Shown here: positions 5-9,961 of the stretch, piece after piece
How positions within the stretch are numbered: the stretch's first letter is position 1
How the letters are laid out: each line of letters opens with the position of its first letter
Assembly (NCBI GenBank): GCA_017411715.1
Contig: JAFQPO010000005.1
Location: forward strand, 662-64,661
Reading direction: 5' to 3'
Length of the DNA: 64,000 bases
Source of the DNA: Bacilli bacterium
GTDB taxonomy: Bacteria; Bacillota_I; Bacilli_A; ML615J-28; CAG-313
The notes under the pieces: model-generated
What the model was told of the DNA's origin: nothing
Databases searched by the model: none
What the model saw: only the letters and a program-made list of their open reading frames with translations
Program-made: the position numbers and the translations under genes

Positions 5-1501
5 ATGATTAAACTAGGCCATAAATTATCATATCAATTAAGAGAAAAATATATTTCTCATCTATTTGATATGGATTCTGAACTTTATGAAAAATATACT
101 AAAGGGGACTTAATAAGTAGGGCTACTAATGATTTAAATAGTTTAACAACTCTTGCTACAACATTCTTAGAAAATGTAATCTTTTACGCTGTTACAATCA
201 TTACAGCTATTGTTATGATGATAATAATTAGTCCACTTTTAACTTTAGCATCTGTTGCTTTTATGCCACTAGTTATTTTCTTTTTAAACAAAGCAAGATT
301 AGAAAAAAGAAAATATTATAAAAAGCATCATGAAATATATGCGGAAATGACAGAAAGTGTCTTAGAGTCTATTGAAGGTGTTAAAACAGTTAGAGCATAT
401 TGTTATGAAGATGAAGATTTTAAGAAAACTGAAAGAGCCATTATTAATGATGTTGATTCATGGTGGAAGATCCAAAAATTTGAATCTGCTTTTACACCTT
501 TATTTGAACTAGTTTATGCTCTTGCCTATTTTATCGCCATAGGTCTTGGAACTTATTTAGTTATTCATGGAGATATTTCGGCTGGTAGTTTAGTTTCATA
601 CTTAGTTTATGTTGGCACATTATATGCCCCATTAATTGGTTTAAGTAATGTATTAAACATTATGAATAATATTGTTATTGCTGATCAAAGATTTAATGAA
701 GTTATGAATACAATTCCATCAGTTAAGAATGAAGAACATCCCAAAGATATACTTAAGTTTAAAGAAATATCTTTTAATAATGCTAGTTTTAAATATCCTT
801 TTGATGATTTTGAAGTAATAAAAAATATCACCTTCTCAATTAAAAGTGGTGAAACAATAGGGATTGTTGGACCTACTGGTAGTGGTAAATCAACTTTAAT
901 TAGACAATTACTAAGAGAATTTAATCTAACATCTGGTGAAATTAAAATAGATGGAAATGATATCAAAGAATATAAAATAGAAGATATTAGAAATCTAGTA
1001 GGCTATGTTCCTCAAAATCATATTTTATTTAGAAGAAGTGTTGATGATAATATTTTAATCGGTAAACCAGATGCAAATTCCCAAGCATTACAAAAAGCAA
1101 TGACAATGGCTGATTTTAAAAAAGATTTATCTAATTTAGCAGAAGGTTCTAGTACGATGGTTGCTGAACTTGGAGAATCATTAAGTGGTGGTCAAAAACA
1201 AAGACTATCAATTGCTAGAGCCCTAGTAAAAGACCCAGAAATTTTAATATTAGATGATAGTTTAAGTGCAGTTGATGCTTTAACAGAATCTACTATTATT
1301 GAACAATTAAAAGAAGATCGAAAAGATAAAACAAATATAATTGTTGCTCATAGATTTAGCGCCGTTAAAAACGCTGATAAAATTATTGTATTACAAGATG
1401 GAGTTATTACTGATATGGGTAGTTCTAAAGAATTACTTAAGTATGATAACTGGTATAAACTACAATATCTTAAACAATTAAAAGGTGATATTTATGAGTA
1501 A
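5..1501 (+). CDS. Heterodimeric multidrug ABC exporter subunit, BmrC/YheI-like (5'-truncated by window edge)
   Basis: TM helices, Walker A GPTGSGKST, LSGGQ signature, degenerate Walker B ILILDD; overlaps partner gene; frame open to window start. Confidence 0.9.
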   Translation: MIKLGHKLSYQLREKYISHLFDMDSELYEKYTKGDLISRATNDLNSLTTLATTFLENVIFYAVTIITAIVMMIIISPLLTLASVAFMPLVIFFLNKARLEKRKYYKKHHEIYAEMTESVLESIEGVKTVRAYCYEDEDFKKTERAIINDVDSWWKIQKFESAFTPLFELVYALAYFIAIGLGTYLVIHGDISAGSLVSYLVYVGTLYAPLIGLSNVLNIMNNIVIADQRFNEVMNTIPSVKNEEHPKDILKFKEISFNNASFKYPFDDFEVIKNITFSIKSGETIGIVGPTGSGKSTLIRQLLREFNLTSGEIKIDGNDIKEYKIEDIRNLVGYVPQNHILFRRSVDDNILIGKPDANSQALQKAMTMADFKKDLSNLAEGSSTMVAELGESLSGGQKQRLSIARALVKDPEILILDDSLSAVDALTESTIIEQLKEDRKDKTNIIVAHRFSAVKNADKIIVLQDGVITDMGSSKELLKYDNWYKLQYLKQLKGDIYE

Positions 1502-3515
1502 TTATAAGAGATTGTTTCACTTTTTAAAAGGAAGATTTAGATTCTTGATTGTTAGTTTAATAATGATTTTTGTAATCCAGTGTTTAAACTTCGTATCTCC
1601 ACTTATTGTCAAAACCTTATTAGATGATTATATAATGGGGATTGAATATGATTGGGTTGAAGTTTTAGAAGAAGATAAACATACAGTCAATTATTTAAAC
1701 CGCATATTTAAACAAACAAGATATATTGATGAAGATGATAAAGTAATTAAGGATGTTAGTATCTTTTTATATGAAGCTAAAGTATATTTTGTAGATGAAA
1801 AAATAGAAGTAGGACAAAAAGAAATTGTTGATAATAAATTAGTTATTACTAATAGTCAATCTTCATATTCTTATGATATCTTACTACTTTCATCAAATGA
1901 AATATACAAATTCTACAACCCAATGTTATATTCAATTATTATAATAATAGTTATTTTATTTATTAAATCAGTTGTAACTATTATTTGTAATTTTGTCCAA
2001 CAAATGTGTACTAACAGATGTATTAACCGAATAGTAATGGAAGAAAGAATAAATGGGATGAAAGCAGTTGAAAGATTACCAATCGCAGAATTTGAAAAAG
2101 AGCCTGCTGGTAAACTAGCTAGCCGTATTACTAGTGATGTAGATGGTATTTTAATAATGTATCGTCAAATCATTAATTTATTTTTTAATGCTATTTTAGC
2201 ATTTATATTTGCTTATATTGGAATGTTCTATTTAGATGTTAAACTTGCTTTATTAACTCTAGTTTTTTATCCATTAATTTTTATTTGGATTAAATTATTC
2301 TTAAAATCATTAAAGAAAGTATCAGAAAGAGTAAATGAATCTAGAAGCTTATTAACATCTAAAATAAATGAAATAATTAATGGTATTAATATTCTACAAA
2401 TTTTTAATTTTAAAAATAAAACCATTAATGAATTTAATGAAATAAATGAAGAATATCGAAGTCAACAATTAAAAGGTTCGAAACTAAGTCTTGTTGGTGG
2501 CTGGAATTTACTTAATGTTTTAAGAGGTTTAATAACAACATTCATTGTTGCGTACTTTGGATGGCAATATACAAGTGTAGGAAGTATTGTTGTGACAGCG
2601 GGATTAGTTTATGCGTATAATGAATATATTTTAAAACTAGTTGACCCTATCAATATTATTTTTACGCAAATAAGTGCTTTCCAAGATTCCCATGTGCAAG
2701 TTAGAAGATATCATAAACTAATAGAAGCTCCACTTGAAGCATATGATAAAAATCATATTGAAAGATATAAAGGGAAGATTAAGTTTGATAATATTTGGTT
2801 TAGTTATGTTAATGATAATTACGTTTTAAAAGGAGTTTCTTTTGATATTGAACCAGGTCAAATGATTGGTCTAGTAGGTCATACGGGAAGTGGCAAAAGT
2901 TCTTTAATTAATCTATTACTTAGATTTTACGATATCAATAATGATTTAAGTGGTAGTATTTATGTTGATGATATGGATATTACATCGATAGAAAAAAGAA
3001 CATACCGTGAGCATATTGGAATTGTATTACAAGAGCCTGTCTTGTTTAAAGGAACAATTGCTTCTAATATCAAATTCGGGAAAGATATATCAGATGAAGA
3101 AGTTGAAAACATATTAAAGATGATAGGTGGACAAAAGATAATTGATAAGTTCCCGTTAGGAATTCATCAAAAAATTACTCGCTCTGGGCTTAATATGAGT
3201 GCAGGAGAAAAACAATTAATTTCGCTTGCTAGAGTATTAGTCCATGATCCTAGTATTCTAATTATGGATGAAGCAACTTCTCATATTGATTTAGAAACTG
3301 AAGAAATGGTTAAAAATGCTTTAAAGGTGGTTTCTAAAAATAGAACTGTTATTGTAATAGCTCATAGATTATCTACAATCTTTGATGCGGATAAGATTAT
3401 TGTCTTAGACCATGGTTTAAAAGTAGAAGAAGGAAAACATACCGAACTTGTTAAATTAAATGGTGTGTATGCTAATATTTATAGAGCTCAAACAGCGAAC
3501 ATAAATTTGAAATAA
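1494..3515 (+). CDS. Heterodimeric multidrug ABC exporter subunit, BmrD/YheH-like
   Basis: TMD with large extracellular loop after TM1 as in YheH; GHTGSGKSS, ILIMDEAT; ATG 1494 after AAAGGTGA preferred over GTG 1485. Confidence 0.9.
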   Translation: MSNYKRLFHFLKGRFRFLIVSLIMIFVIQCLNFVSPLIVKTLLDDYIMGIEYDWVEVLEEDKHTVNYLNRIFKQTRYIDEDDKVIKDVSIFLYEAKVYFVDEKIEVGQKEIVDNKLVITNSQSSYSYDILLLSSNEIYKFYNPMLYSIIIIIVILFIKSVVTIICNFVQQMCTNRCINRIVMEERINGMKAVERLPIAEFEKEPAGKLASRITSDVDGILIMYRQIINLFFNAILAFIFAYIGMFYLDVKLALLTLVFYPLIFIWIKLFLKSLKKVSERVNESRSLLTSKINEIINGINILQIFNFKNKTINEFNEINEEYRSQQLKGSKLSLVGGWNLLNVLRGLITTFIVAYFGWQYTSVGSIVVTAGLVYAYNEYILKLVDPINIIFTQISAFQDSHVQVRRYHKLIEAPLEAYDKNHIERYKGKIKFDNIWFSYVNDNYVLKGVSFDIEPGQMIGLVGHTGSGKSSLINLLLRFYDINNDLSGSIYVDDMDITSIEKRTYREHIGIVLQEPVLFKGTIASNIKFGKDISDEEVENILKMIGGQKIIDKFPLGIHQKITRSGLNMSAGEKQLISLARVLVHDPSILIMDEATSHIDLETEEMVKNALKVVSKNRTVIVIAHRLSTIFDADKIIVLDHGLKVEEGKHTELVKLNGVYANIYRAQTANINLK

Positions 3516-3543
3516 ATTATTTGTAAAAAAATATCTAAAATAG

Positions 3544-3600
3544 TTGCAACAAATTCATTTATAATATATAATATACTCGGGTTTAGAACTCGAGTATATT
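3544..3600 (+). promoter_or_regulatory. sigmaA promoter with overlapping palindromic operator (copy 1)
   Basis: TTGCAA 3544-3549, 17 nt, TATAAT 3567-3572; AATATACTCGGG-TTTAGAA-CTCGAGTATATT 3570-3600. Confidence 0.8.
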
Positions 3601-3676
3601 TTAATTATAAGAACTTTTTTTACAAATTAAAAAGAAGAAAAATATAAAAAAGTTATATTGAAAGGAATGGTGATAT

Positions 3677-5983
3677 ATGTCAAATAATGAGTTTAATTAT
3701 TTCAAAGAAGAAAATCAATTTAAAGAAAACAAATCGTTTGATATTTTATCTGTTAATAACAAAGATAAAGAAGTATCATCTCCTAAAATAGATGTATATA
3801 AGACAAAAGAGATTGGTAGTAGTAGTAAGAATGTAAATAAAAAAGATAATAAAAATGTTATTAAAAAAATACTTCAAAAAGTAACTGAATCAACAAGCTC
3901 ATTTGTAAGTGGCGTTGCCGCAACAGCAGCAGTAGTTATAACAACTGTGGTGATATTTTCAAATGTTGTTTTTGATAAACCAGCAATTGAATTAATAGAA
4001 CTTGTTGAAGGCTATGATTATGTAGAATATAATATTTCTTTAGACGATATATCAGAAGAAATTAGTTATTATGTCGTTATTGATAATAGTTTTGAGTCCC
4101 ACTCTTTTGATATAAGAGTCGGAGAAAATAAAAATGTTGTAAATGATTTAATTAGTAATTCATTATATAATTTATCAGTAATAGGAATTAATAATGAAAA
4201 TCAAACGGAAGTTAAATATTTTACAACTAGATTCTTTACTAAAGAAAGTATTGAAAATTATAAAATCACATGGATGTCACAAGGTGAAATCTTAAAAGAA
4301 GAACAAATTCAAAAAGGCCAAATACCATCATATGATGGAGTGATTCCTAAAAGGGGAGAAACGATAGATTATAAGTATGAGTTTATCGGTTGGGATCAAG
4401 AATTTACAGAAGTATTTGCGGATACAGTATATAATGCGGTATTCAAAGAAATTGAAAAAGAGTTTACTGCTTCTATTAATTTACTAGATGAAAGTGATGT
4501 AATAATATATTGGGATAATCCAGATTATAACGAAGTAGTGTTTAATGTTGGGTTTGATAATTCAAATGATCCAAATTTATTATACCGTATTATCTTAACC
4601 GATGAATCAAATAATACGTATGAATATGCTAGTTCATCACAAAATGCAACAATTAATGTACCAAAAGATGTATCACAAGTAACAATTACATATGAATTAA
4701 TTATAGGTTATAATGGATTAGAAAAAGTTCATTCGACAAAAACAATGGAACAACCACTAATCTTTAATAATCCTACATTATCACTTGGAGATTCACTAAC
4801 ATTATCAGGTGTCGATGAATATGAACTTACATACATGATTAATTCAGAATATTATAATAATGAACAATATAAACTAATTAATTTTGATATTACATATAGT
4901 GATAATACTAATGAAATAATTGATATTAGTGAATTTGGGATTAATGAAGTTCAGACAATGAAAGTCAAAGTTCCAAGTTTTGTAAGTAACATGACAATTG
5001 ATTATCAGTTAGAACTTCTAGGTAATAATGGACTTAATCCACGAGTAGTTAGTGGAACTAAAGCATATGAATTAACTAATGAATATTATTTAACTAAAAA
5101 ATATGTTTCAAATATTTCTTCACCATCGGTAATACTTGAGTTTAATTATCATTTTATCGATGAAAATACAACAATTGCAGTAAAGGATATATCAACTGAT
5201 GAAGTTACATTATTAGATGCAAATACTAATAAAATAACTATGTATCATGATGGATCAAGTCAATTAAAAGATTATACCTATTATTTAGCTGATTTTGATG
5301 GTACGATAATTGATGCTGAACAAAGTGTTTCAATTGATTGTACTGAACAAAAAGGCGATTATAATTTTAATTATATAAATCCTGGAGATGCAATTGTTAC
5401 ATACAATGATGATGGTACAATAAATATTTATCTTGAAACTGTATTTGAAACAGTTGATACTAATATTTATTATTCAGTTGTTTATAATAATTATCAAACA
5501 GATACATCAGTTGAAGTATATTACACTTCTTCATATGCAAGATATGAAAATGTAGCATTTAGTGACTATGGAATAGTTTACTATGTATATAAAAATGTTG
5601 ATGATATAGTTTATATATTAGAAGAAATAGCTGTCTCAGGTGGTATTGAAATAACAAATGATTTTAATATTAATGGTAGCATTACTACAGAAGATGATAT
5701 TAATTATACAATTAGTTTTAACTTTGAAGATTATAAATATGATTTTGATGAAAATAGTTTTACCTTAACTATTGATGGAGAAAACTATGTTGTAGATAGT
5801 AGTAATTTAATACATGAATCAACAAATGGTTCTTATACATTCTCGTACGTTATTGATTTTGAACCTACGAATGTTGAAGTAACATTCCAAGGTTCACCAT
5901 CTTTAAATAGTTATGACACACTAGTTCAAAATATTGATGTAAAAGGAAATAAATATGCAACTATAACAGTTAGTTTCTATTAA
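3677..5983 (+). CDS. Large membrane-anchored surface protein (N-proximal TM; FN3/Ig-like and Listeria-Bacteroides-repeat-like domains)
   Basis: Lys-rich N-terminus, hydrophobic VSGVAATAAVVITTVVIF, beta-rich acidic ectodomain, motif YKITW..G..L...IQKGQIPSY...YEFIGWD......TVYNAVF. Confidence 0.7.
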   Translation: MSNNEFNYFKEENQFKENKSFDILSVNNKDKEVSSPKIDVYKTKEIGSSSKNVNKKDNKNVIKKILQKVTESTSSFVSGVAATAAVVITTVVIFSNVVFDKPAIELIELVEGYDYVEYNISLDDISEEISYYVVIDNSFESHSFDIRVGENKNVVNDLISNSLYNLSVIGINNENQTEVKYFTTRFFTKESIENYKITWMSQGEILKEEQIQKGQIPSYDGVIPKRGETIDYKYEFIGWDQEFTEVFADTVYNAVFKEIEKEFTASINLLDESDVIIYWDNPDYNEVVFNVGFDNSNDPNLLYRIILTDESNNTYEYASSSQNATINVPKDVSQVTITYELIIGYNGLEKVHSTKTMEQPLIFNNPTLSLGDSLTLSGVDEYELTYMINSEYYNNEQYKLINFDITYSDNTNEIIDISEFGINEVQTMKVKVPSFVSNMTIDYQLELLGNNGLNPRVVSGTKAYELTNEYYLTKKYVSNISSPSVILEFNYHFIDENTTIAVKDISTDEVTLLDANTNKITMYHDGSSQLKDYTYYLADFDGTIIDAEQSVSIDCTEQKGDYNFNYINPGDAIVTYNDDGTINIYLETVFETVDTNIYYSVVYNNYQTDTSVEVYYTSSYARYENVAFSDYGIVYYVYKNVDDIVYILEEIAVSGGIEITNDFNINGSITTEDDINYTISFNFEDYKYDFDENSFTLTIDGENYVVDSSNLIHESTNGSYTFSYVIDFEPTNVEVTFQGSPSLNSYDTLVQNIDVKGNKYATITVSFY

Positions 5984-5997
5984 AAAGGAGATAATAA

Positions 5998-7044
5998 ATG
6001 GAAAAGAAAAATAAAAAAATAAATATATATCAAATACTACAAATAGTTTTAATAGTTTTAGTACTTGCTTTTATCGCAATGTGTATAATTGTTCAATTAA
6101 TTGATCCATCTTTAAATATTTCTAAATGGATAATTGAAAATGTATGGGACTTAAATAAAACAAAAGCAATTTTTAATGATCGTGTACCAACTATTATACG
6201 TAGTTTAATTTACATTGTATTAATATATGGTATTTGTAAACTTATCAGATTAATTTTTAGGGTTCAAATGAAAAAGAATCATCGTTCAAAAACTATTTTT
6301 ACACTATTAGATGGTTTTACTAAATATGCATGTGCAGTTATTATTATTTTATTAATACTTAGTGCATTTGGAGTAGACACAACAGCCCTTGTTGCTTCAG
6401 TCGGTGTATTAACGTTAATTGTTGGTCTTGGTGCTCAATCATTAATTGCTGATATCATTGCGGGAATATTCATTATTTTTGAAAACGAATATAATGTTGG
6501 TGAAATTATTAGTGTTGATGGTTTTAGGGGAACAGTAGTAGAAATTGGTATTCGTTCAACAAAAGTAATTGATGCGGCGGGTAATATTAAAATAATAAAT
6601 AATAGTAATATTGGTGACATTGTTAACTTATCAAGAGAATTATCTTTAGCAGTAGTTGATTTAGATTTTCCATATGATGTTCCTGTTGATTTAGTAGAAA
6701 ATATTTTAAAAGATAATTTCAAATTAATGCAAAAAAATATTAATGGTATTGTTGATGGGCCTTTCTATAAAGGAATTTGTAACTACAAAGATTCTAACGT
6801 TACTTTGAAAATTGTTGCTCAATGTAAAGAAGAAGATCGTTTTCAAGTTGAAAGAGATTTAATGAGAGAGTATCGTCGAATCTTACTTGAAAATAATATT
6901 GATATGTCATATCATCAAGTAGTTATTAATTATGCGGAAACAAAAGAGTATAGCTCAAACAGCAAATCTAAAAAAGAAGCTGAAGCATTTGTTAAAAAAC
7001 AAAAAATCTTATCTAAAGATTTAGAAGAACAAGAAAACCAATAA
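5998..7044 (+). CDS. mscS: Small-conductance mechanosensitive channel (MscS family)
   Basis: ALVASVGVLTLIVGLGAQSLIADIIAGIFIIFE..Y.VGE.I...G..GTV.EIGIRSTK. Confidence 0.9.
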   Translation: MEKKNKKINIYQILQIVLIVLVLAFIAMCIIVQLIDPSLNISKWIIENVWDLNKTKAIFNDRVPTIIRSLIYIVLIYGICKLIRLIFRVQMKKNHRSKTIFTLLDGFTKYACAVIIILLILSAFGVDTTALVASVGVLTLIVGLGAQSLIADIIAGIFIIFENEYNVGEIISVDGFRGTVVEIGIRSTKVIDAAGNIKIINNSNIGDIVNLSRELSLAVVDLDFPYDVPVDLVENILKDNFKLMQKNINGIVDGPFYKGICNYKDSNVTLKIVAQCKEEDRFQVERDLMREYRRILLENNIDMSYHQVVINYAETKEYSSNSKSKKEAEAFVKKQKILSKDLEEQENQ

Positions 7045-7086
7045 AAATAAATGATCTTGATTATTTGTAAAAAATATTGAGATATG

Positions 7087-7119
7087 AATAAGGGTAGTTA
7101 TATCTACCCTTATTTTTTT
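7087..7119 (+). terminator. Rho-independent terminator
   Basis: AATAAGGGTAG/CTACCCTTATT stem followed by T run. Confidence 0.85.
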
Positions 7120-7206: not shown

Positions 7207-8463
7207 ATGTTTTGTAAAAGTTTGGAACAATTTTTAAATGAGTATTTAGAAAATGATGTGCCTTATATGGATTTATATTTTGAAAATAAGGAACACTATA
7301 AAGACTTATATGATTATGCAAAACAACATCTATATGATACGAGATTTCAAGTAATTATGGGTTATCTATATAAATATGGAGAAGCAGGAGAAAAGAACCA
7401 TCAATTAGCATTTGAGCACTTCTATAAAGCAGCTATTAATGATAATAAATATGCTGCTAATGAAATTGCGTTAGCATATGAATATGGTAATGGTGTTGAT
7501 AAAAACATCGAAGAATCAGTGAAGTGGTTTGAAAAAGGCGTTGCGCTTAATAATCCTTCATCTATGAATGATTTAGGCTATCTTTATGAAAGGGGAATAG
7601 GAGTTAAGCAAAATTTAGAAATTGCAGTTGAGTATTATCAAATGGCAGCCGATCTAGGAAATCCTACTGCTATTAATAATTTGGCATTATGTTATAAGGC
7701 GGGGAAAGTAGTTAAGCAAGATTATCATAAAGCTTTTGAATTGTTTACTAAGGCTGCTGAATTGGGGTGCAATGCAAGTTATAGTCATCTAGGTTATATG
7801 TATGAACAAGGACAAGGTATAGAAGTTAATCTTGAAAAAGCTTTTCACTATTATGAAATTGCTGCGAAAAAAGGAGTACCTGTAGGTATGTTTAATCTAG
7901 GATACACATATGATCATGGTATTGGAACTGCAAAAGATCCAGAAAAAGCTCTTTATTGGTATGAAGAATCAGCTAAAAAAGGCTATCAACAAGGGATGCT
8001 AAATGCGGGTATTATGTACAACCATGGAATAGGCGTTGCACAAGATTTTGGGAAAGCCCGTTATTGGTATGAAAAAGCAGCTGAATGTGGAAACGCTCGC
8101 GCACAATGTTCATTAGGCTTTATGTATGAAAAAGGTAATGGAGTTCCTCAAAATTACAAAACAGCTCTAGAGTATTATGAAAAATCTGCTAATTCTGGAT
8201 ATGCTACAGCAATTAATAACTTAGGTGTATTTTATGAACATGGATTTGGTTGTGAAGCAAATATAAATAAAGCCATTGAATATTATAAAATAGCAGCTGA
8301 AAAAGGCGAAGGAATCGCACTATCAAACTTAGGCTTATGTTATAGATATGGTCGAGGTGTCTGCAAAAATGTAAGTTATGCTTTAGAATTATTCAAAAAA
8401 GCAATTGATGCAGGATTCGAAAAAGCAAAAGATTATTATGAAAAAGCAAAAAATGAATTGTAA
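7207..8463 (+). CDS. Sel1-repeat (TPR-like) protein
   Basis: About ten ~36-aa repeats A...LG..Y..G.GV......A..YY..AA..G; no signal peptide. Confidence 0.92.
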   Translation: MFCKSLEQFLNEYLENDVPYMDLYFENKEHYKDLYDYAKQHLYDTRFQVIMGYLYKYGEAGEKNHQLAFEHFYKAAINDNKYAANEIALAYEYGNGVDKNIEESVKWFEKGVALNNPSSMNDLGYLYERGIGVKQNLEIAVEYYQMAADLGNPTAINNLALCYKAGKVVKQDYHKAFELFTKAAELGCNASYSHLGYMYEQGQGIEVNLEKAFHYYEIAAKKGVPVGMFNLGYTYDHGIGTAKDPEKALYWYEESAKKGYQQGMLNAGIMYNHGIGVAQDFGKARYWYEKAAECGNARAQCSLGFMYEKGNGVPQNYKTALEYYEKSANSGYATAINNLGVFYEHGFGCEANINKAIEYYKIAAEKGEGIALSNLGLCYRYGRGVCKNVSYALELFKKAIDAGFEKAKDYYEKAKNEL

Positions 8464-8470
8464 TGATAAT

Positions 8471-8511
8471 AAAGTACTAATAAACAATCGTGTTTATTAG
8501 TACTTTTTTTT
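8471..8511 (+). terminator. Rho-independent terminator
   Basis: 16-bp perfect stem AAAGTACTAATAAACA/TGTTTATTAGTACTTT plus T run. Confidence 0.9.
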
Positions 8512-8523
8512 ATTAATAAAAAA

Positions 8524-8590
8524 GTATCAATGATACAAAAAATATTGACAAATTATTGATTATGTGATATAATTAATGTATCAATGATAT
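8524..8590 (+). promoter_or_regulatory. TA-operon promoter flanked by two GTATCAATGATAC palindromes
   Basis: TTGACA 8545-8550, 17 nt, TG-n-TATAAT 8568-8573; palindromes at 8524-8536 (perfect) and 8578-8590 (1 mismatch). Confidence 0.8.
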
Positions 8591-8640
8591 CATTTATGAA
8601 AGGAGGATGAAACTATGGGAATAGAATAGATATCAGTGAG

Positions 8641-8976
8641 TTGGGAAAACAAATATATATACAAGAAGTTATTGAATTAATAAATAAAAATCAATTTTAC
8701 ATAATACCTAGAGAAAAGAATAAAAATTTTATATATGAATATAAATTAGATTATATAATGATAAAACAAATGTTGTTATCTTTAGAGAAAGATGACATAA
8801 AATATCAAGTGGAAGATATAGAGTATACGAAGTATGGATCAGCACCATTAGTAGTATTTAAGAAACAATTTCATTTAATTGATATGTTTGGTAATGATAA
8901 AAATGAAATTGTGTATATTAAAATAAAAATGAATAAAGAAAAAATGCCAGTTATATCTTTTCATCTAAACGAATAG
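8641..8976 (+). CDS. MqsR-like toxin (RelE-fold mRNase); start uncertain
   Basis: Small basic protein ending VYIKIK...VISFH, directly upstream of an MqsA-like gene; only a TTG start in frame. Confidence 0.65.
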   Translation: MGKQIYIQEVIELINKNQFYIIPREKNKNFIYEYKLDYIMIKQMLLSLEKDDIKYQVEDIEYTKYGSAPLVVFKKQFHLIDMFGNDKNEIVYIKIKMNKEKMPVISFHLNE

Positions 8977-8989
8977 AAAGAGGAATTAT

Positions 8990-9961
8990 ATGAAAAATAC
9001 AAAAGATTATTGTTTATTGTGTAATAAACACGTAGAATCAATTATTATTAATAAACAACTAAAATATGAAGACAATATGATTGATGTAGAATATGAAGGT
9101 AAAATTGCTATATGTCCTATTTGCGGTGAAGAATTATATAACGATGATGTTATTAAGTACAATCAACAAAAGATTGCTGAACAATATAAAATTGAAAATG
9201 ACATTATAACTAAAGAAGAAATAATAGAAATAATGAGAAAATATAATATTGGCAAAAGACCTTTATCATTACTACTTGGCTTTGGAGAAATAACTATTAC
9301 AAGATATTTAGATGGATATATACCAACAAGTAAAAATTCTAAAATCTTAAAGAAAGTTTTATACTCTCCAAGTGATTATTATTCAATCTTACAAATGAAT
9401 AAAGACAAAATTAAAGAAGTTGCCTTTAATAAAAGTGAAGAAGCAACCAAAAAATTATTAGATATCAATTTGAAAGATGGTATCATTGATGTTGCTGCTA
9501 AGTATATTGTAAATAAGGCAGAAATTACGAATCTTTCACTACAAAAGATTCTATATTACGTTCAAATGTTTTATATGGCCATTTATAAAAAACATGCTTT
9601 TAATAGTAGATGCAATGCCTGGGAGTATGGTCCTGTTTTTGGAACTATTTACCATAAATATAAGAGATTTGGTAAAAATATTATTGTTGATGAAATGCCT
9701 GAAAATGAACTAGATAAAGACTTAAAAGAGACAATCGATAATGTTCTTAAATATTTTGGCTGTTATACAGGTATCGTTTTGAAATCATTTACGCATCAAG
9801 AAACTCCATGGATCGATGCCATTAAATCTGAAAATAAAATAATTGAAAAAAATGTTATTAGAGAATATGGAGAAATGATTGTGAAAAAGTTTAGTATAAA
9901 TCACATAAATGAGATCAATAAGTATAGTTCATTTATGTTTGAACAATATTTAGAAAGTTAA
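8990..9961 (+). CDS. Antitoxin: MqsA-type Zn ribbon + HTH fused to Panacea (DUF4065/GepA/SocA) domain
   Basis: CxxC...CPIC; HTH (LSLLLGFGEITITRYLDG); Panacea motifs LQKILYY, AWEYGPV, THQETPW. Confidence 0.85.
   Translation: MKNTKDYCLLCNKHVESIIINKQLKYEDNMIDVEYEGKIAICPICGEELYNDDVIKYNQQKIAEQYKIENDIITKEEIIEIMRKYNIGKRPLSLLLGFGEITITRYLDGYIPTSKNSKILKKVLYSPSDYYSILQMNKDKIKEVAFNKSEEATKKLLDINLKDGIIDVAAKYIVNKAEITNLSLQKILYYVQMFYMAIYKKHAFNSRCNAWEYGPVFGTIYHKYKRFGKNIIVDEMPENELDKDLKETIDNVLKYFGCYTGIVLKSFTHQETPWIDAIKSENKIIEKNVIREYGEMIVKKFSINHINEINKYSSFMFEQYLES

What the first reader, a model, noticed from the sequence alone, without database searches (positions are those of the whole stretch)
3525..3600. 76-bp promoter-operator module duplicated 8.6 kb away, with compensatory change in the palindrome
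3525-3600 and 12105-12179 align with only about 12 differences. Shared: A-tract/ATATCTAA, TTGCAA-17-TATAAT, and an inverted repeat ATATACT(C/T)G(G/A)G-TTTAGAA-CTC(G/A)AGTATAT over the -10/+1. The C...G pair of copy 1 is T...A in copy 2, preserving symmetry. The left arm overlaps the -10, so this is a DNA operator rather than an RNA hairpin. Copy 2 precedes TetR, so the unrelated surface protein at 3677 is probably in the same regulon.
Basis: partly seen in the sequence, partly recalled or inferred. Interest (0 to 1): 0.7.

Follow-up and report, generated by a model that had tools for sequence, protein, structure and literature searches.

The report
Duplicated TetR promoter-operator rewires neighbour operon
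An ~85-bp promoter with a 31-bp palindromic operator, normally found only in front of a TetR repressor gene in these uncultured gut Bacilli, has been copied in this one species in place of the native promoter of a membrane-protein/MscS-channel operon 8.6 kb away. This probably puts that operon under the same repressor: a clean but ordinary case of promoter reuse.

Summary
Window 3518-3601 and 12097-12180 align with 10 substitutions and 1 indel over the 76-bp core. Both carry TTGCAA-17-TATAAT and a palindrome that is larger than reported: 14+3+14 bp, AATATACTYGRGTT-TAG-AACTCRAGTATATT.

Copy 2 is ancestral. Every TetR orthologue of at least 75% identity has TATAAT directly followed by ATACTYRAGTT-NNN-AACTYRAGTAT. 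The arms are 91-94% conserved, against 57-72% for spacer, loop and downstream sequence. More distant homologues with a different recognition helix carry a different palindrome at the same place.

Copy 1 is a species-specific replacement. The 768-aa/MscS operon has another conserved promoter and no palindrome in four related lineages. Within the species, copy 1 shows no variant while the rest of its intergenic region shows six.

The best reading is a TetR autoregulatory operator over the transcription start, copied so as to recruit a second operon. No binding has been shown.

The "compensatory change" is not good evidence. Those two positions are a freely varying Y-R step (9 G·T and 2 A·C pairings among orthologues), and a strain allele of copy 2 already carries copy 1's G.

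This is ordinary TetR biology plus promoter reuse: a new member of a known kind, of modest interest.

The parts
1485..3515 (+). ABC exporter gene (ABC_membrane + ABC_tran). Its stop codon directly abuts copy 1, and no separate terminator lies between them.
   Evidence: In relative L013 the orthologous ABC pair (85-91% identity) lies downstream of TetR-MBG_2 and is followed by a lipoprotein gene.
3518..3601 (+). Copy 1 of the promoter-operator module. It is the derived, species-specific copy.
   Evidence: At unconstrained columns it is 83% identical to copy 2 but only 33-54% identical to orthologous TetR promoters. No variant was seen in strains X12, X15, X17, X24, X3.
3525..3538 (+). A-tract plus ATATCTAA, an UP-element-like stretch upstream of the -35.
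   Evidence: Similar A-tracts occur at the same distance in L007, L013, L014.
3544..3549 (+). -35 hexamer TTGCAA (copy 1).
   Evidence: TTGC is conserved in all TetR orthologue promoters.
3567..3572 (+). -10 hexamer TATAAT (copy 1). It overlaps the palindrome by 3 nt.
3570..3600 (+). Operator O1: AATATACTCGGGTT-TAG-AACTCGAGTATATT. 13 of 14 arm positions are complementary, with one G·T.
3579..3579 (+). Predicted transcription start. It is the purine of the Y-R step, 7 nt after the -10. This is an inference, not a measurement.
   Evidence: Geometry. No RNA 5'-end data could be obtained.
3677..5983 (+). 768-aa lineage-restricted protein. It has one transmembrane segment at about residues 74-104 and no Pfam domain.
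   Evidence: (only 28 homologues).
5998..7044 (+). MscS-like mechanosensitive channel gene, always paired with the 768-aa gene.
7086..7115 (+). Terminator-like hairpin that ends the 768-aa/MscS unit.
12069..12094 (+). Terminator-like hairpin of the preceding Cthe_2159 gene, just upstream of copy 2.
12097..12180 (+). Copy 2 of the module. It is the ancestral TetR promoter-operator.
12123..12128 (+). -35 hexamer TTGCAA (copy 2).
12146..12151 (+). -10 hexamer TATAAT (copy 2).
   Evidence: It is 100% conserved in orthologues.
12149..12179 (+). Operator O2: AATATACTTGAGTT-TAG-AACTCAAGTATATT, a perfect 14+3+14 palindrome.
   Evidence: A strain allele has 12171 A>G.
12201..12878 (+). TetR-family regulator of 225 aa, with its HTH at residues 34-52.
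12887..16612 (+). 1241-aa MBG_2-domain protein with a signal peptide and a C-terminal transmembrane anchor. It starts 9 nt after the TetR stop and is the conserved partner of TetR.

Best explanation
The 31-bp palindrome is the operator of the TetR-family repressor encoded at 12201. In the ancestral arrangement (copy 2) it lies directly after the -10 box of the tetR/MBG_2-surface-protein operon and covers the transcription start. Bound repressor would therefore block initiation or promoter escape of its own operon (autoregulation), until an unknown ligand releases it.

In this species alone, an ~85-bp copy of that whole promoter plus operator (UP-like A-tract, -35, spacer, -10, palindrome) has replaced the native promoter of the 768-aa membrane protein/MscS-channel operon. 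That operon is thereby recruited into the same regulon.

Each arm contains a self-complementary 8-mer, ACTYRAGT. The paralogous 60-74% clade keeps only one such unit, as a 12-14-bp palindrome TGAAC-N4-GTTCA. So the 31-bp site most likely holds two dimers centred 13 bp apart, as QacR does on IR1.

Shown: the duplication, its direction, its species specificity, the phylogenetic footprint, and the co-variation of recognition helix and palindrome. Inferred: binding by this TetR, repression, the start site and the stoichiometry.
For: Duplication and chance.

Position in orthologues: eight distinct orthologous TetR promoters (75-82% protein identity) have TATAAT immediately followed by ATACTYRAGTT-NNN-AACTYRAGTAT. 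There is one site per +/-10 kb, always in front of TetR.

Footprint: -10 is 100% conserved, left arm 94%, right arm 91%. By comparison the loop is 59%, downstream 57%, and -35 plus spacer 72%.

Half-site: the consensus is A-T-A-C-T-Y-R-A-G-T-T, with only positions 6 and 7 variable.

Regulator-operator co-variation:
- Homologues of at least 60% identity share the recognition helix GVxYNEIFRM and the AACTYRAGT core.
- The 41-44% homologues L018 and L019 have the helix AYSSLINVF and a different palindrome, AATTGTATCACGATACAATT, at the same position after the -10.

Conserved operon: TetR is followed 9-13 nt later by a large MBG_2 protein in all close orthologues.

Direction and species specificity:
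- 768/659-aa-MscS orthologues in L001, L032/33, L034/35 and L036/37 share another promoter (TGATATAAT about 55 nt before the ATG) and no palindrome. In the window that element is degenerate.
- Copy 1 matches its own genome's copy 2 at 83% of unconstrained columns, against 33-54% for orthologues.

Constraint on copy 1: 0 variable positions in the 86 nt at 3516-3601 (stop-codon flank plus module), against 6 in the remaining 75 nt of the intergenic region across strains (Fisher p=0.009).

Protein: TetR_N HTH and a confident all-helical TetR fold (pLDDT 86.8; hits to AcrR, RolR, DesT, CprB).

Known precedent: QacR binds a large inverted repeat immediately downstream of the qacA promoter, overlapping the start site, as two dimers (PMC3617543). 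A dimer-of-dimers subclass of TetR regulators is described in PMC5397183.
Against: - No binding, footprint or expression data exist. The organism is an uncultured 'Bacilli bacterium' MAG lineage.
- The start site is predicted only. The metatranscriptome contigs gave no 5' ends.
- The full source genome could not be scanned, so the size of the regulon is unknown. Another regulator binding the site cannot be excluded.
- G·T mispairs outnumber A·C (9 against 2), which is the direction an RNA helix on the + strand would tolerate.
- A strain with a 97%-identical 768-aa protein (L043) diverges about 45 nt upstream of the ATG and may lack the module.
- The copies are 14% diverged, against about 2% strain diversity. 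So the duplication is old, or the donor was a related lineage rather than this genome.
Confidence: 0.72

Rival explanations
1. The palindrome acts as RNA. It could be a 5'-terminal stem-loop that stabilises or attenuates the two mRNAs. In copy 1 it could be the intrinsic terminator of the upstream ABC operon. TetR linkage would then be incidental.
For: - The predicted hairpins are strong: -15.7 and -17.1 kcal/mol, z-scores -6.1 and -7.3.
- The terminator scan flags 3570-3600 followed by TTTTAATTAT, and no other terminator separates the ABC2 stop (3515) from the 768-aa gene.
- G·T pairs outnumber A·C on the + strand, 9 against 2.
Against: - In all orthologues the -10 hexamer abuts or overlaps the left arm. 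A transcript from this promoter would therefore start at about position 7 of the arm and keep only a 5-bp stem, folding no better than shuffled sequence (z -0.7 and -0.8).
- A·C and other non-pairs do occur (4 of 110 cells).
- Copy 2 and all orthologues already have a separate terminator upstream.
- The 60-74% clade loses arm-to-arm complementarity but keeps the right arm as its own palindrome. A hairpin model does not predict this.
- There is no Rfam family.
- A terminator role for read-through from the ABC genes could still be a secondary effect of copy 1.
Confidence: 0.1
2. The two copies are primarily a recombination scar. They would be direct repeats flanking an 8.6-kb strain-variable island (768-aa, MscS, Sel1, toxin-antitoxin-like pair, Cthe_2159), created when the block was joined next to the ABC genes. 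One route is integration of a circular intermediate through the TetR promoter; another is a tandem-duplication junction. On this view the regulatory consequence for the 768-aa operon is a by-product and may not be used.
For: - The copies are in direct orientation and bracket a block whose content differs between strains (L021, L022, L023, L026).
- The left edge of copy 1 sits exactly at the ABC2 stop codon, while in L013 the same ABC pair lies downstream of TetR-MBG_2. A rearrangement therefore did occur here.
- Several assemblies break at or near the module.
Against: - The order 768-MscS...TetR-MBG_2 is ancestral (L001, L036), so the block was not newly inserted as a whole.
- The native promoter of the 768-aa gene has decayed in this species, which argues that the new promoter is the one in use.
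- Copy 1 shows no polymorphism while its flank does.
- No deletion joint between the repeats was seen in four metagenomes.
- This rival concerns origin and is compatible with the main explanation of function.
Confidence: 0.2
3. The module is a small mobile element (MITE/REP-like) or a generic strong promoter spread through the genome, and the palindrome is its terminal or structural feature rather than a specific operator.
For: - It is a short, AT-rich, palindrome-containing repeat upstream of unrelated genes.
- It formally meets the criteria for 'putative mobile promoters' (PMC3575422).
Against: - There are only two copies in 64 kb and one per 20-kb locus in all relatives, always before TetR.
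- No match was found in GTDB representative genomes for the strict pattern, in IMG/VR or in plasmids.
- There are no terminal inverted repeats or target duplications at the module edges.
Confidence: 0.03

Closest known systems
QacR-IR1 of Staphylococcus aureus (TetR family; two dimers on a large inverted repeat)
   Same: - A large inverted repeat lies immediately downstream of the -10 and overlaps the (here predicted) transcription start.
- The regulator is TetR-family.
- The operator (about 29-31 bp) is too long for one dimer. The arm cores are 13 bp apart, which suggests a pair of dimers (PMC3617543; PMC5397183).
   Different: - QacR is divergently transcribed from an efflux-pump gene and is not reported there as autoregulated through IR1. 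Here the operator precedes tetR itself and a surface-protein gene.
- There is no sequence similarity beyond the HTH.
- Stoichiometry was not tested here.
- Each arm here contains its own 8-bp mini-palindrome.
Classical autoregulated TetR-family repressors with 12-17-bp palindromic operators (TetR/tetO, DesT, SimR)
   Same: - The protein has a TetR_N HTH and a helical ligand domain.
- The palindromic site overlaps the promoter of its own gene.
- The paralogous 60-74% clade has exactly such a single 12-14-bp palindrome, e.g. TGAACTCGAGTTCA in L038.
   Different: - In the window's clade the symmetry axis lies between two such units, giving a 31-bp site.
- The target genes are large surface or membrane proteins and an MscS channel, not an efflux pump or a catabolic enzyme.
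- The ligand is unknown.
Promoter reuse / 'putative mobile promoters' (Matus-Garcia, Nijveen and van Passel 2012; PMC3575422)
   Same: At least 80% identity over at least 50 nt upstream of two non-homologous genes in one genome. The proposed consequence is rapid transcriptional rewiring.
   Different: - Here the donor, the recipient, the direction and the displaced native promoter can all be identified from relatives.
- The copied unit carries a repressor's operator together with the repressor's own promoter.
- No IS element is associated with the copy in the window. An ISL3 sits upstream of the same gene in relative L001.

Membership tests
TetR-family repressor with cognate operator | N-terminal TetR_N helix-turn-helix and an all-helical ligand/dimerisation domain | tested here: met
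   PF00440, E=1.7e-10. Model pLDDT 86.8 with 11 helices and the HTH at residues 34-52. Foldseek and PDB sequence hits are only to TetR-family proteins.
TetR-family repressor with cognate operator | Palindromic DNA site overlapping the promoter of the regulated gene(s), conserved with the regulator | tested here: met
   The site lies directly after the -10 in all orthologues of at least 75% identity. Arms are 91-94% conserved against 57-72% for neighbouring columns. The palindrome changes when the recognition helix changes.
TetR-family repressor with cognate operator | The protein binds the site and represses; a ligand releases it | not testable with these tools
   This needs EMSA or footprinting and reporter assays. 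The organism is uncultured.
QacR-type dimer-of-dimers operator | Inverted repeat of about 28 bp or more, downstream of the -10 and over the start site | tested here: met
   A 31-bp palindrome at 3570-3600 and 12149-12179 overlaps the -10 by 3 nt. The start site is predicted, not measured.
QacR-type dimer-of-dimers operator | Two dimers bound per operator | not testable with these tools
   There is only indirect support. Each arm holds a self-complementary ACTYRAGT core, and the paralogous clade keeps a single unit as a 12-14-bp palindrome.
Putative mobile promoter (promoter reuse) | At least 80% identity over at least 50 nt upstream of non-homologous genes in the same genome | tested here: met
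   About 85% identity over 76-84 nt. The downstream proteins are unrelated.
Putative mobile promoter (promoter reuse) | Evidence that the promoter moved independently of its gene | tested here: met
   Orthologues of the recipient operon carry a different conserved promoter in four lineages. Orthologues of the donor all carry the module.
Intrinsic terminator / structured RNA element | A transcribed stem-loop, with a U-tract for a terminator, maintained by covariation | tested here: inconclusive
   - The stem is strong, and copy 1 has a weak T-tail.
- However, the predicted start lies inside the left arm.
- Pairing at the variable positions is not maintained: 9 G·T, 2 A·C, 2 other.
- There is no Rfam match.
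MITE/REP-like repeat | Many dispersed copies with terminal repeats or target duplications | tested here: not met
   Two copies in the window and one per relative locus. None in IMG/VR or plasmids.

The most novel reading that the evidence does not exclude
The 31-bp site may be a recently evolved double operator. An ancestral single 12-14-bp TetR palindrome (TGAAC-N4-GTTCA, still used by a paralogous clade) would have been re-centred into two half-degenerate units forming a larger palindrome. This would give cooperative two-dimer binding that insulates this TetR from a co-resident paralogue with a nearly identical recognition helix; L011 and L014 lie on one contig. On this reading the same unit, copied as a portable promoter-plus-operator cassette, captured a surface-protein/MscS operon. 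TetR here would then govern a small, evolving cell-envelope regulon rather than efflux or catabolism.
Probability: 0.25. Interest if true: 0.55.

Novelty: new member of a known kind. Interest (0 to 1): 0.33.

Why it matters
This is a tidy natural example of regulon growth by copying a repressor's own promoter-operator in front of another operon. Donor, recipient, direction and the displaced native promoter are all visible from relatives. It gives a testable operator and half-site (ATACTYRAGTT) for an uncharacterised TetR clade of herbivore-gut Bacilli. That clade is consistently linked to large MBG_2 surface proteins, which are unusual TetR targets.

The comparison between clades (single 12-14-bp palindrome against 31-bp double palindrome, with the same recognition helix) could inform how TetR operators change stoichiometry. 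None of this overturns current understanding.

Tried and rejected
- Strict palindrome scan of GTDB representative genomes: 0 hits. The source species is evidently not represented, so no genome-wide regulon scan was possible.
- TetR-based locus search: 8 loci from genomes and 6 from metagenomes. The latter were mostly distant homologues.
- RNA evidence: the only RNA runs are stored as assembled contigs. They show pieces inside the 768-aa, MscS and Cthe_2159 genes but give no 5' ends and nothing over TetR. The start site remains a prediction.
- Deletion form between the two direct repeats: none seen in four metagenomes. The listed 'joints' rest on 20-23-nt matches and are noise.
- Rfam: no credible hit at either copy.
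- IMG/VR pattern scan and plasmid BLAST of the module: nothing.
- PADLOC on the genes between the copies: nothing.
- TetR structure model against the PDB: only generic TetR-family similarity (TM 0.4-0.66). It gives no clue to ligand or stoichiometry.
- Second TetR paralogue in the window: none found.

Full report
**1. The observation**

Window 3518-3601 and 12097-12180 align with one 1-nt indel. Similarity ends abruptly on both sides.

Both copies contain:
- an A-tract plus ATATCTAA;
- TTGCAA-17-TATAAT, with -35 at 3544-3549 / 12123-12128 and -10 at 3567-3572 / 12146-12151;
- an inverted repeat.

The repeat is larger than reported. It has 14-bp arms around a 3-bp centre, AATATACTYGRGTT-TAG-AACTCRAGTATATT (3570-3600; 12149-12179). 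It is perfect in copy 2 and has one G·T position in copy 1. With up to three mismatches the pattern occurs only at these two places in 64 kb, and none is expected in shuffles.

**2. Gene context**

Copy 1 begins right after the stop codon of an ABC exporter gene (1485-3515). It precedes two genes:
- a 768-aa protein with one transmembrane segment (residues about 74-104) and no Pfam domain (3677-5983);
- an MscS-like channel gene (5998-7044), followed by a terminator-like hairpin at 7086-7115.

A variable stretch follows: Sel1 repeats, a 111-aa gene next to a Panacea/MqsA-like protein gene, and Cthe_2159. A terminator lies at 12069-12094, then copy 2.

After copy 2 come a 225-aa TetR_N protein (ATG 12201, RBS AAAGGAG) and, 9 nt later, a 1241-aa MBG_2-domain protein with a signal peptide and a C-terminal anchor (12887-16612). 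The two large proteins are unrelated to each other.

**3. Copy 2 is an ancestral, conserved TetR promoter-operator**

The TetR has 673 homologues, all from metagenomes or 'Bacilli bacterium' MAGs of herbivore guts.

I recovered eight distinct orthologous loci at 75-82% protein identity: L001, L007, L008/L015, L009, L027, L013, L014 and L030. In every one, TATAAT is immediately followed by ATACTYRAGTT-NNN-AACTYRAGTAT. This is the only such site within +/-10 kb.

Anchored on the -10, column conservation is as follows:

| Segment | Conservation |
|---|---|
| -10 | 100% |
| Left arm | 94% |
| Right arm | 91% |
| -35 plus spacer | 72% |
| Central 3 nt | 59% |
| Downstream | 57% |

TetR is followed by a large MBG_2 protein in all of these loci, so the conserved regulated unit is tetR-MBG_2.

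**4. Regulator and site change together**

Homologues down to 60% identity share the recognition helix GVxYNEIFRM and an AACTYRAGT core.

The 41-44% homologues L018 and L019 have the helix AYSSLINVF. Directly after their -10 they carry a different 20-bp palindrome, AATTGTATCACGATACAATT.

This is the expected signature of an autoregulatory operator. It is my main reason for assigning the palindrome to this TetR. Binding itself is inferred, not shown.

**5. Anatomy of the site**

Pooling both arms of ten distinct sites gives the half-site A-T-A-C-T-Y-R-A-G-T-T. Only positions 6 and 7 vary, and all four Y-R combinations occur.

The left-arm purine lies 7 nt after the -10 and is preceded by a pyrimidine. 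That is the usual -1/+1 preference, so the predicted starts are 3579 and 12158, inside the left arm.

Each arm contains the self-complementary 8-mer ACTYRAGT. In the 60-74% clade (L004, L010, L011, L012, L038, L040, L042) arm-to-arm complementarity is largely lost. The right arm persists there as a self-contained palindrome, perfect in L038 (TGAACTCGAGTTCA).

That clade is paralogous. L011 (67%) and L014 (82%) lie on one contig and have nearly the same recognition helix.

I infer that one dimer is centred on each arm's Y-R step, 13 bp apart. This would give two dimers per 31-bp site, as described for QacR on IR1 (PMC3617543) and for the dimer-of-dimers subclass of TetR regulators (PMC5397183). 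This part is a model, with roughly even odds.

**6. The 'compensatory change'**

It exists in the two window copies. Comparative data show that it is not evidence of selection for symmetry:
- Across the ten sites, the 110 arm pairs are 97 Watson-Crick, 9 G·T, 2 A·C and 2 other, with 11 of the 13 non-Watson-Crick pairs at the Y-R step.
- Strains in runs X1 and X3 carry 12171 A>G in copy 2. This is the right-arm G of copy 1, combined with an unchanged left arm. They also carry 12131 T>A, which again is the copy 1 state.
- Copy 1 itself breaks symmetry at arm position 8.

**7. DNA operator or RNA hairpin?**

As RNA, the full palindromes would fold strongly (-15.7 and -17.1 kcal/mol). The excess of G·T over A·C points in the direction an RNA helix would tolerate.

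Four points argue against an RNA role:
- The invariant -10 abuts the left arm in every orthologue. Transcripts from this promoter would keep only a 5-bp stem and fold no better than shuffled sequence.
- A·C and other non-pairs do occur.
- The paralogous clade keeps one arm as its own palindrome.
- No Rfam family matches.

Copy 1 is also flagged as terminator-like, and no other terminator follows the ABC genes. A secondary role in stopping read-through is therefore possible. I could not obtain RNA 5' ends, because the RNA runs are stored only as contigs.

**8. Copy 1 is a species-specific promoter replacement**

The 768-aa protein has only 28 homologues.

In four other lineages the orthologous 768/659-aa-MscS pair has a different, mutually conserved upstream region and no palindrome. 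The lineages are L001, L032/33, L034/35 and L036/37. Their upstream region runs terminator, then TGATATAAT about 55 nt before the ATG.

In the window, homology to those regions holds only for about 40 nt before the ATG, and the TGATATAAT element is degenerate.

At unconstrained columns copy 1 matches its own genome's copy 2 at 83%, against 33-54% for orthologous TetR promoters. The direction is therefore TetR promoter to 768-aa operon, within this lineage.

The module is present without any variant in strains from runs X12, X15, X17, X24 and X3. The remaining 75 nt of the same intergenic region has six variable positions (Fisher p=0.009). This suggests the copy is under constraint.

The two copies differ by about 14%, against about 2% strain divergence. 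So the event is not very recent, or the donor was a close relative.

**9. How it arose is unresolved**

- Synteny in relatives is PFK-NUDIX-[768-MscS]-variable island-TetR-MBG_2 (L036). In L027 it is NUDIX-TetR-MBG_2 directly.
- In L013 the orthologous ABC pair lies downstream of TetR-MBG_2. In the window its stop codon touches copy 1, so a rearrangement occurred at this junction.
- The copies are direct repeats around a strain-variable block. I found no deletion joint between them.
- A strain with a 97%-identical 768-aa protein (L043) diverges about 45 nt upstream of the ATG, at a contig end.
- The module has no hits in IMG/VR or plasmids and only two copies here, so it is not a MITE-like repeat.

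**10. Comparison with what is known, and verdict**

Functionally this is a TetR-family autoregulatory operator over the start site, with a QacR-like large inverted repeat. Evolutionarily it fits 'promoter reuse / putative mobile promoters' (PMC3575422).

The less usual aspects are:
- the targets, which are large envelope proteins and an MscS channel rather than efflux or catabolic genes;
- the nested symmetry of the site;
- the clear identification of donor, recipient and displaced promoter.

The finding is real, and its core interpretation is supported in silico. It is a new member of known kinds, of modest interest (0.33).

Noticed in passing
window 63374-63628: Three direct repeats of about 84 nt, 73-83% identical and spaced 96 and 75 nt apart. 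They have promoter-like content (TTGTATTTTTGGCACTTTTTTGTAGTTTATATAGTG) and lie at the very end of the window.
   Followed up: no
window 16072-16428 (inside the MBG_2 gene): Three tandem 126-nt repeats encode a Cys-rich 42-aa unit (HSFTNYTYNEDATCTSFGTETAVCDNCEE...). Strain L024 has a 1199-aa protein against 1241 aa elsewhere, which is exactly one unit fewer. The repeat number therefore varies between strains.
   Followed up: partly
window 7207-12059: The block between the two module copies varies between strains. Sel1, the 111-aa gene with the Panacea/MqsA-like gene, and Cthe_2159 are differently present in L021, L022, L023 and L026. L021 has an FRG/B12-binding gene instead. Relatives carry AbiEii, Fic, AbiH, AIPR or HigB-like genes at the equivalent place, so this is a defence/TA-type hotspot. 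PADLOC gave no hit for the window's genes.
   Followed up: partly
L013 10001-18093 (sheep-colon MAG JAFVWY010000018.1): The ABC exporter pair (91% and 85% identical to window 5-3515) lies downstream of TetR-MBG_2 rather than upstream of the 768-aa operon. The MBG_2 reading frame there is interrupted at 13902 and resumes to about 14180.
   Followed up: partly
L011 1839-2516 and L014 10001-10675 (same contig JAZNQD010000067.1): Two paralogous TetRs (67% and 82% identical to the window's) occur in one genome. Their recognition helices are nearly identical (GVTYNEIYRMF and GVGYNEIFRMF), but the operator layouts differ. L011 has a single GAAT-TTGA-GTTC unit, and L014 has the 31-bp double palindrome. 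Cross-talk or insulation between them is an open question.
   Followed up: partly
L043 1-67: A strain whose 768-aa protein is 97% identical diverges from the window about 45 nt upstream of the ATG (CAGCGCATTTAAAGTCATCTAGTCT...). Its contig ends there, so the module may be absent or displaced in that strain.
   Followed up: partly
L018 about 9960-9985; L019 about 295-320: Distant homologues (41-44% identity) have a different 20-bp palindrome, AATTGTATCACGATACAATT, directly after their -10 box. It is identical in both loci.
   Followed up: no
window 4392-4627, 6579-6788, 11642-11959: A gut metatranscriptome (run X2) contains assembled pieces inside the 768-aa gene, the MscS gene and the Cthe_2159 gene, but none over TetR/MBG_2. 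This is compatible with expression of the copy 1 operon in vivo. DNA carry-over cannot be excluded.
   Followed up: partly
L001 3687-4211: In the relative with 81% TetR identity, an ISL3-family transposase gene lies just upstream of the 768-aa operon, on the opposite strand. This is another sign that the 5' flank of this operon is a rearrangement hotspot.
   Followed up: no
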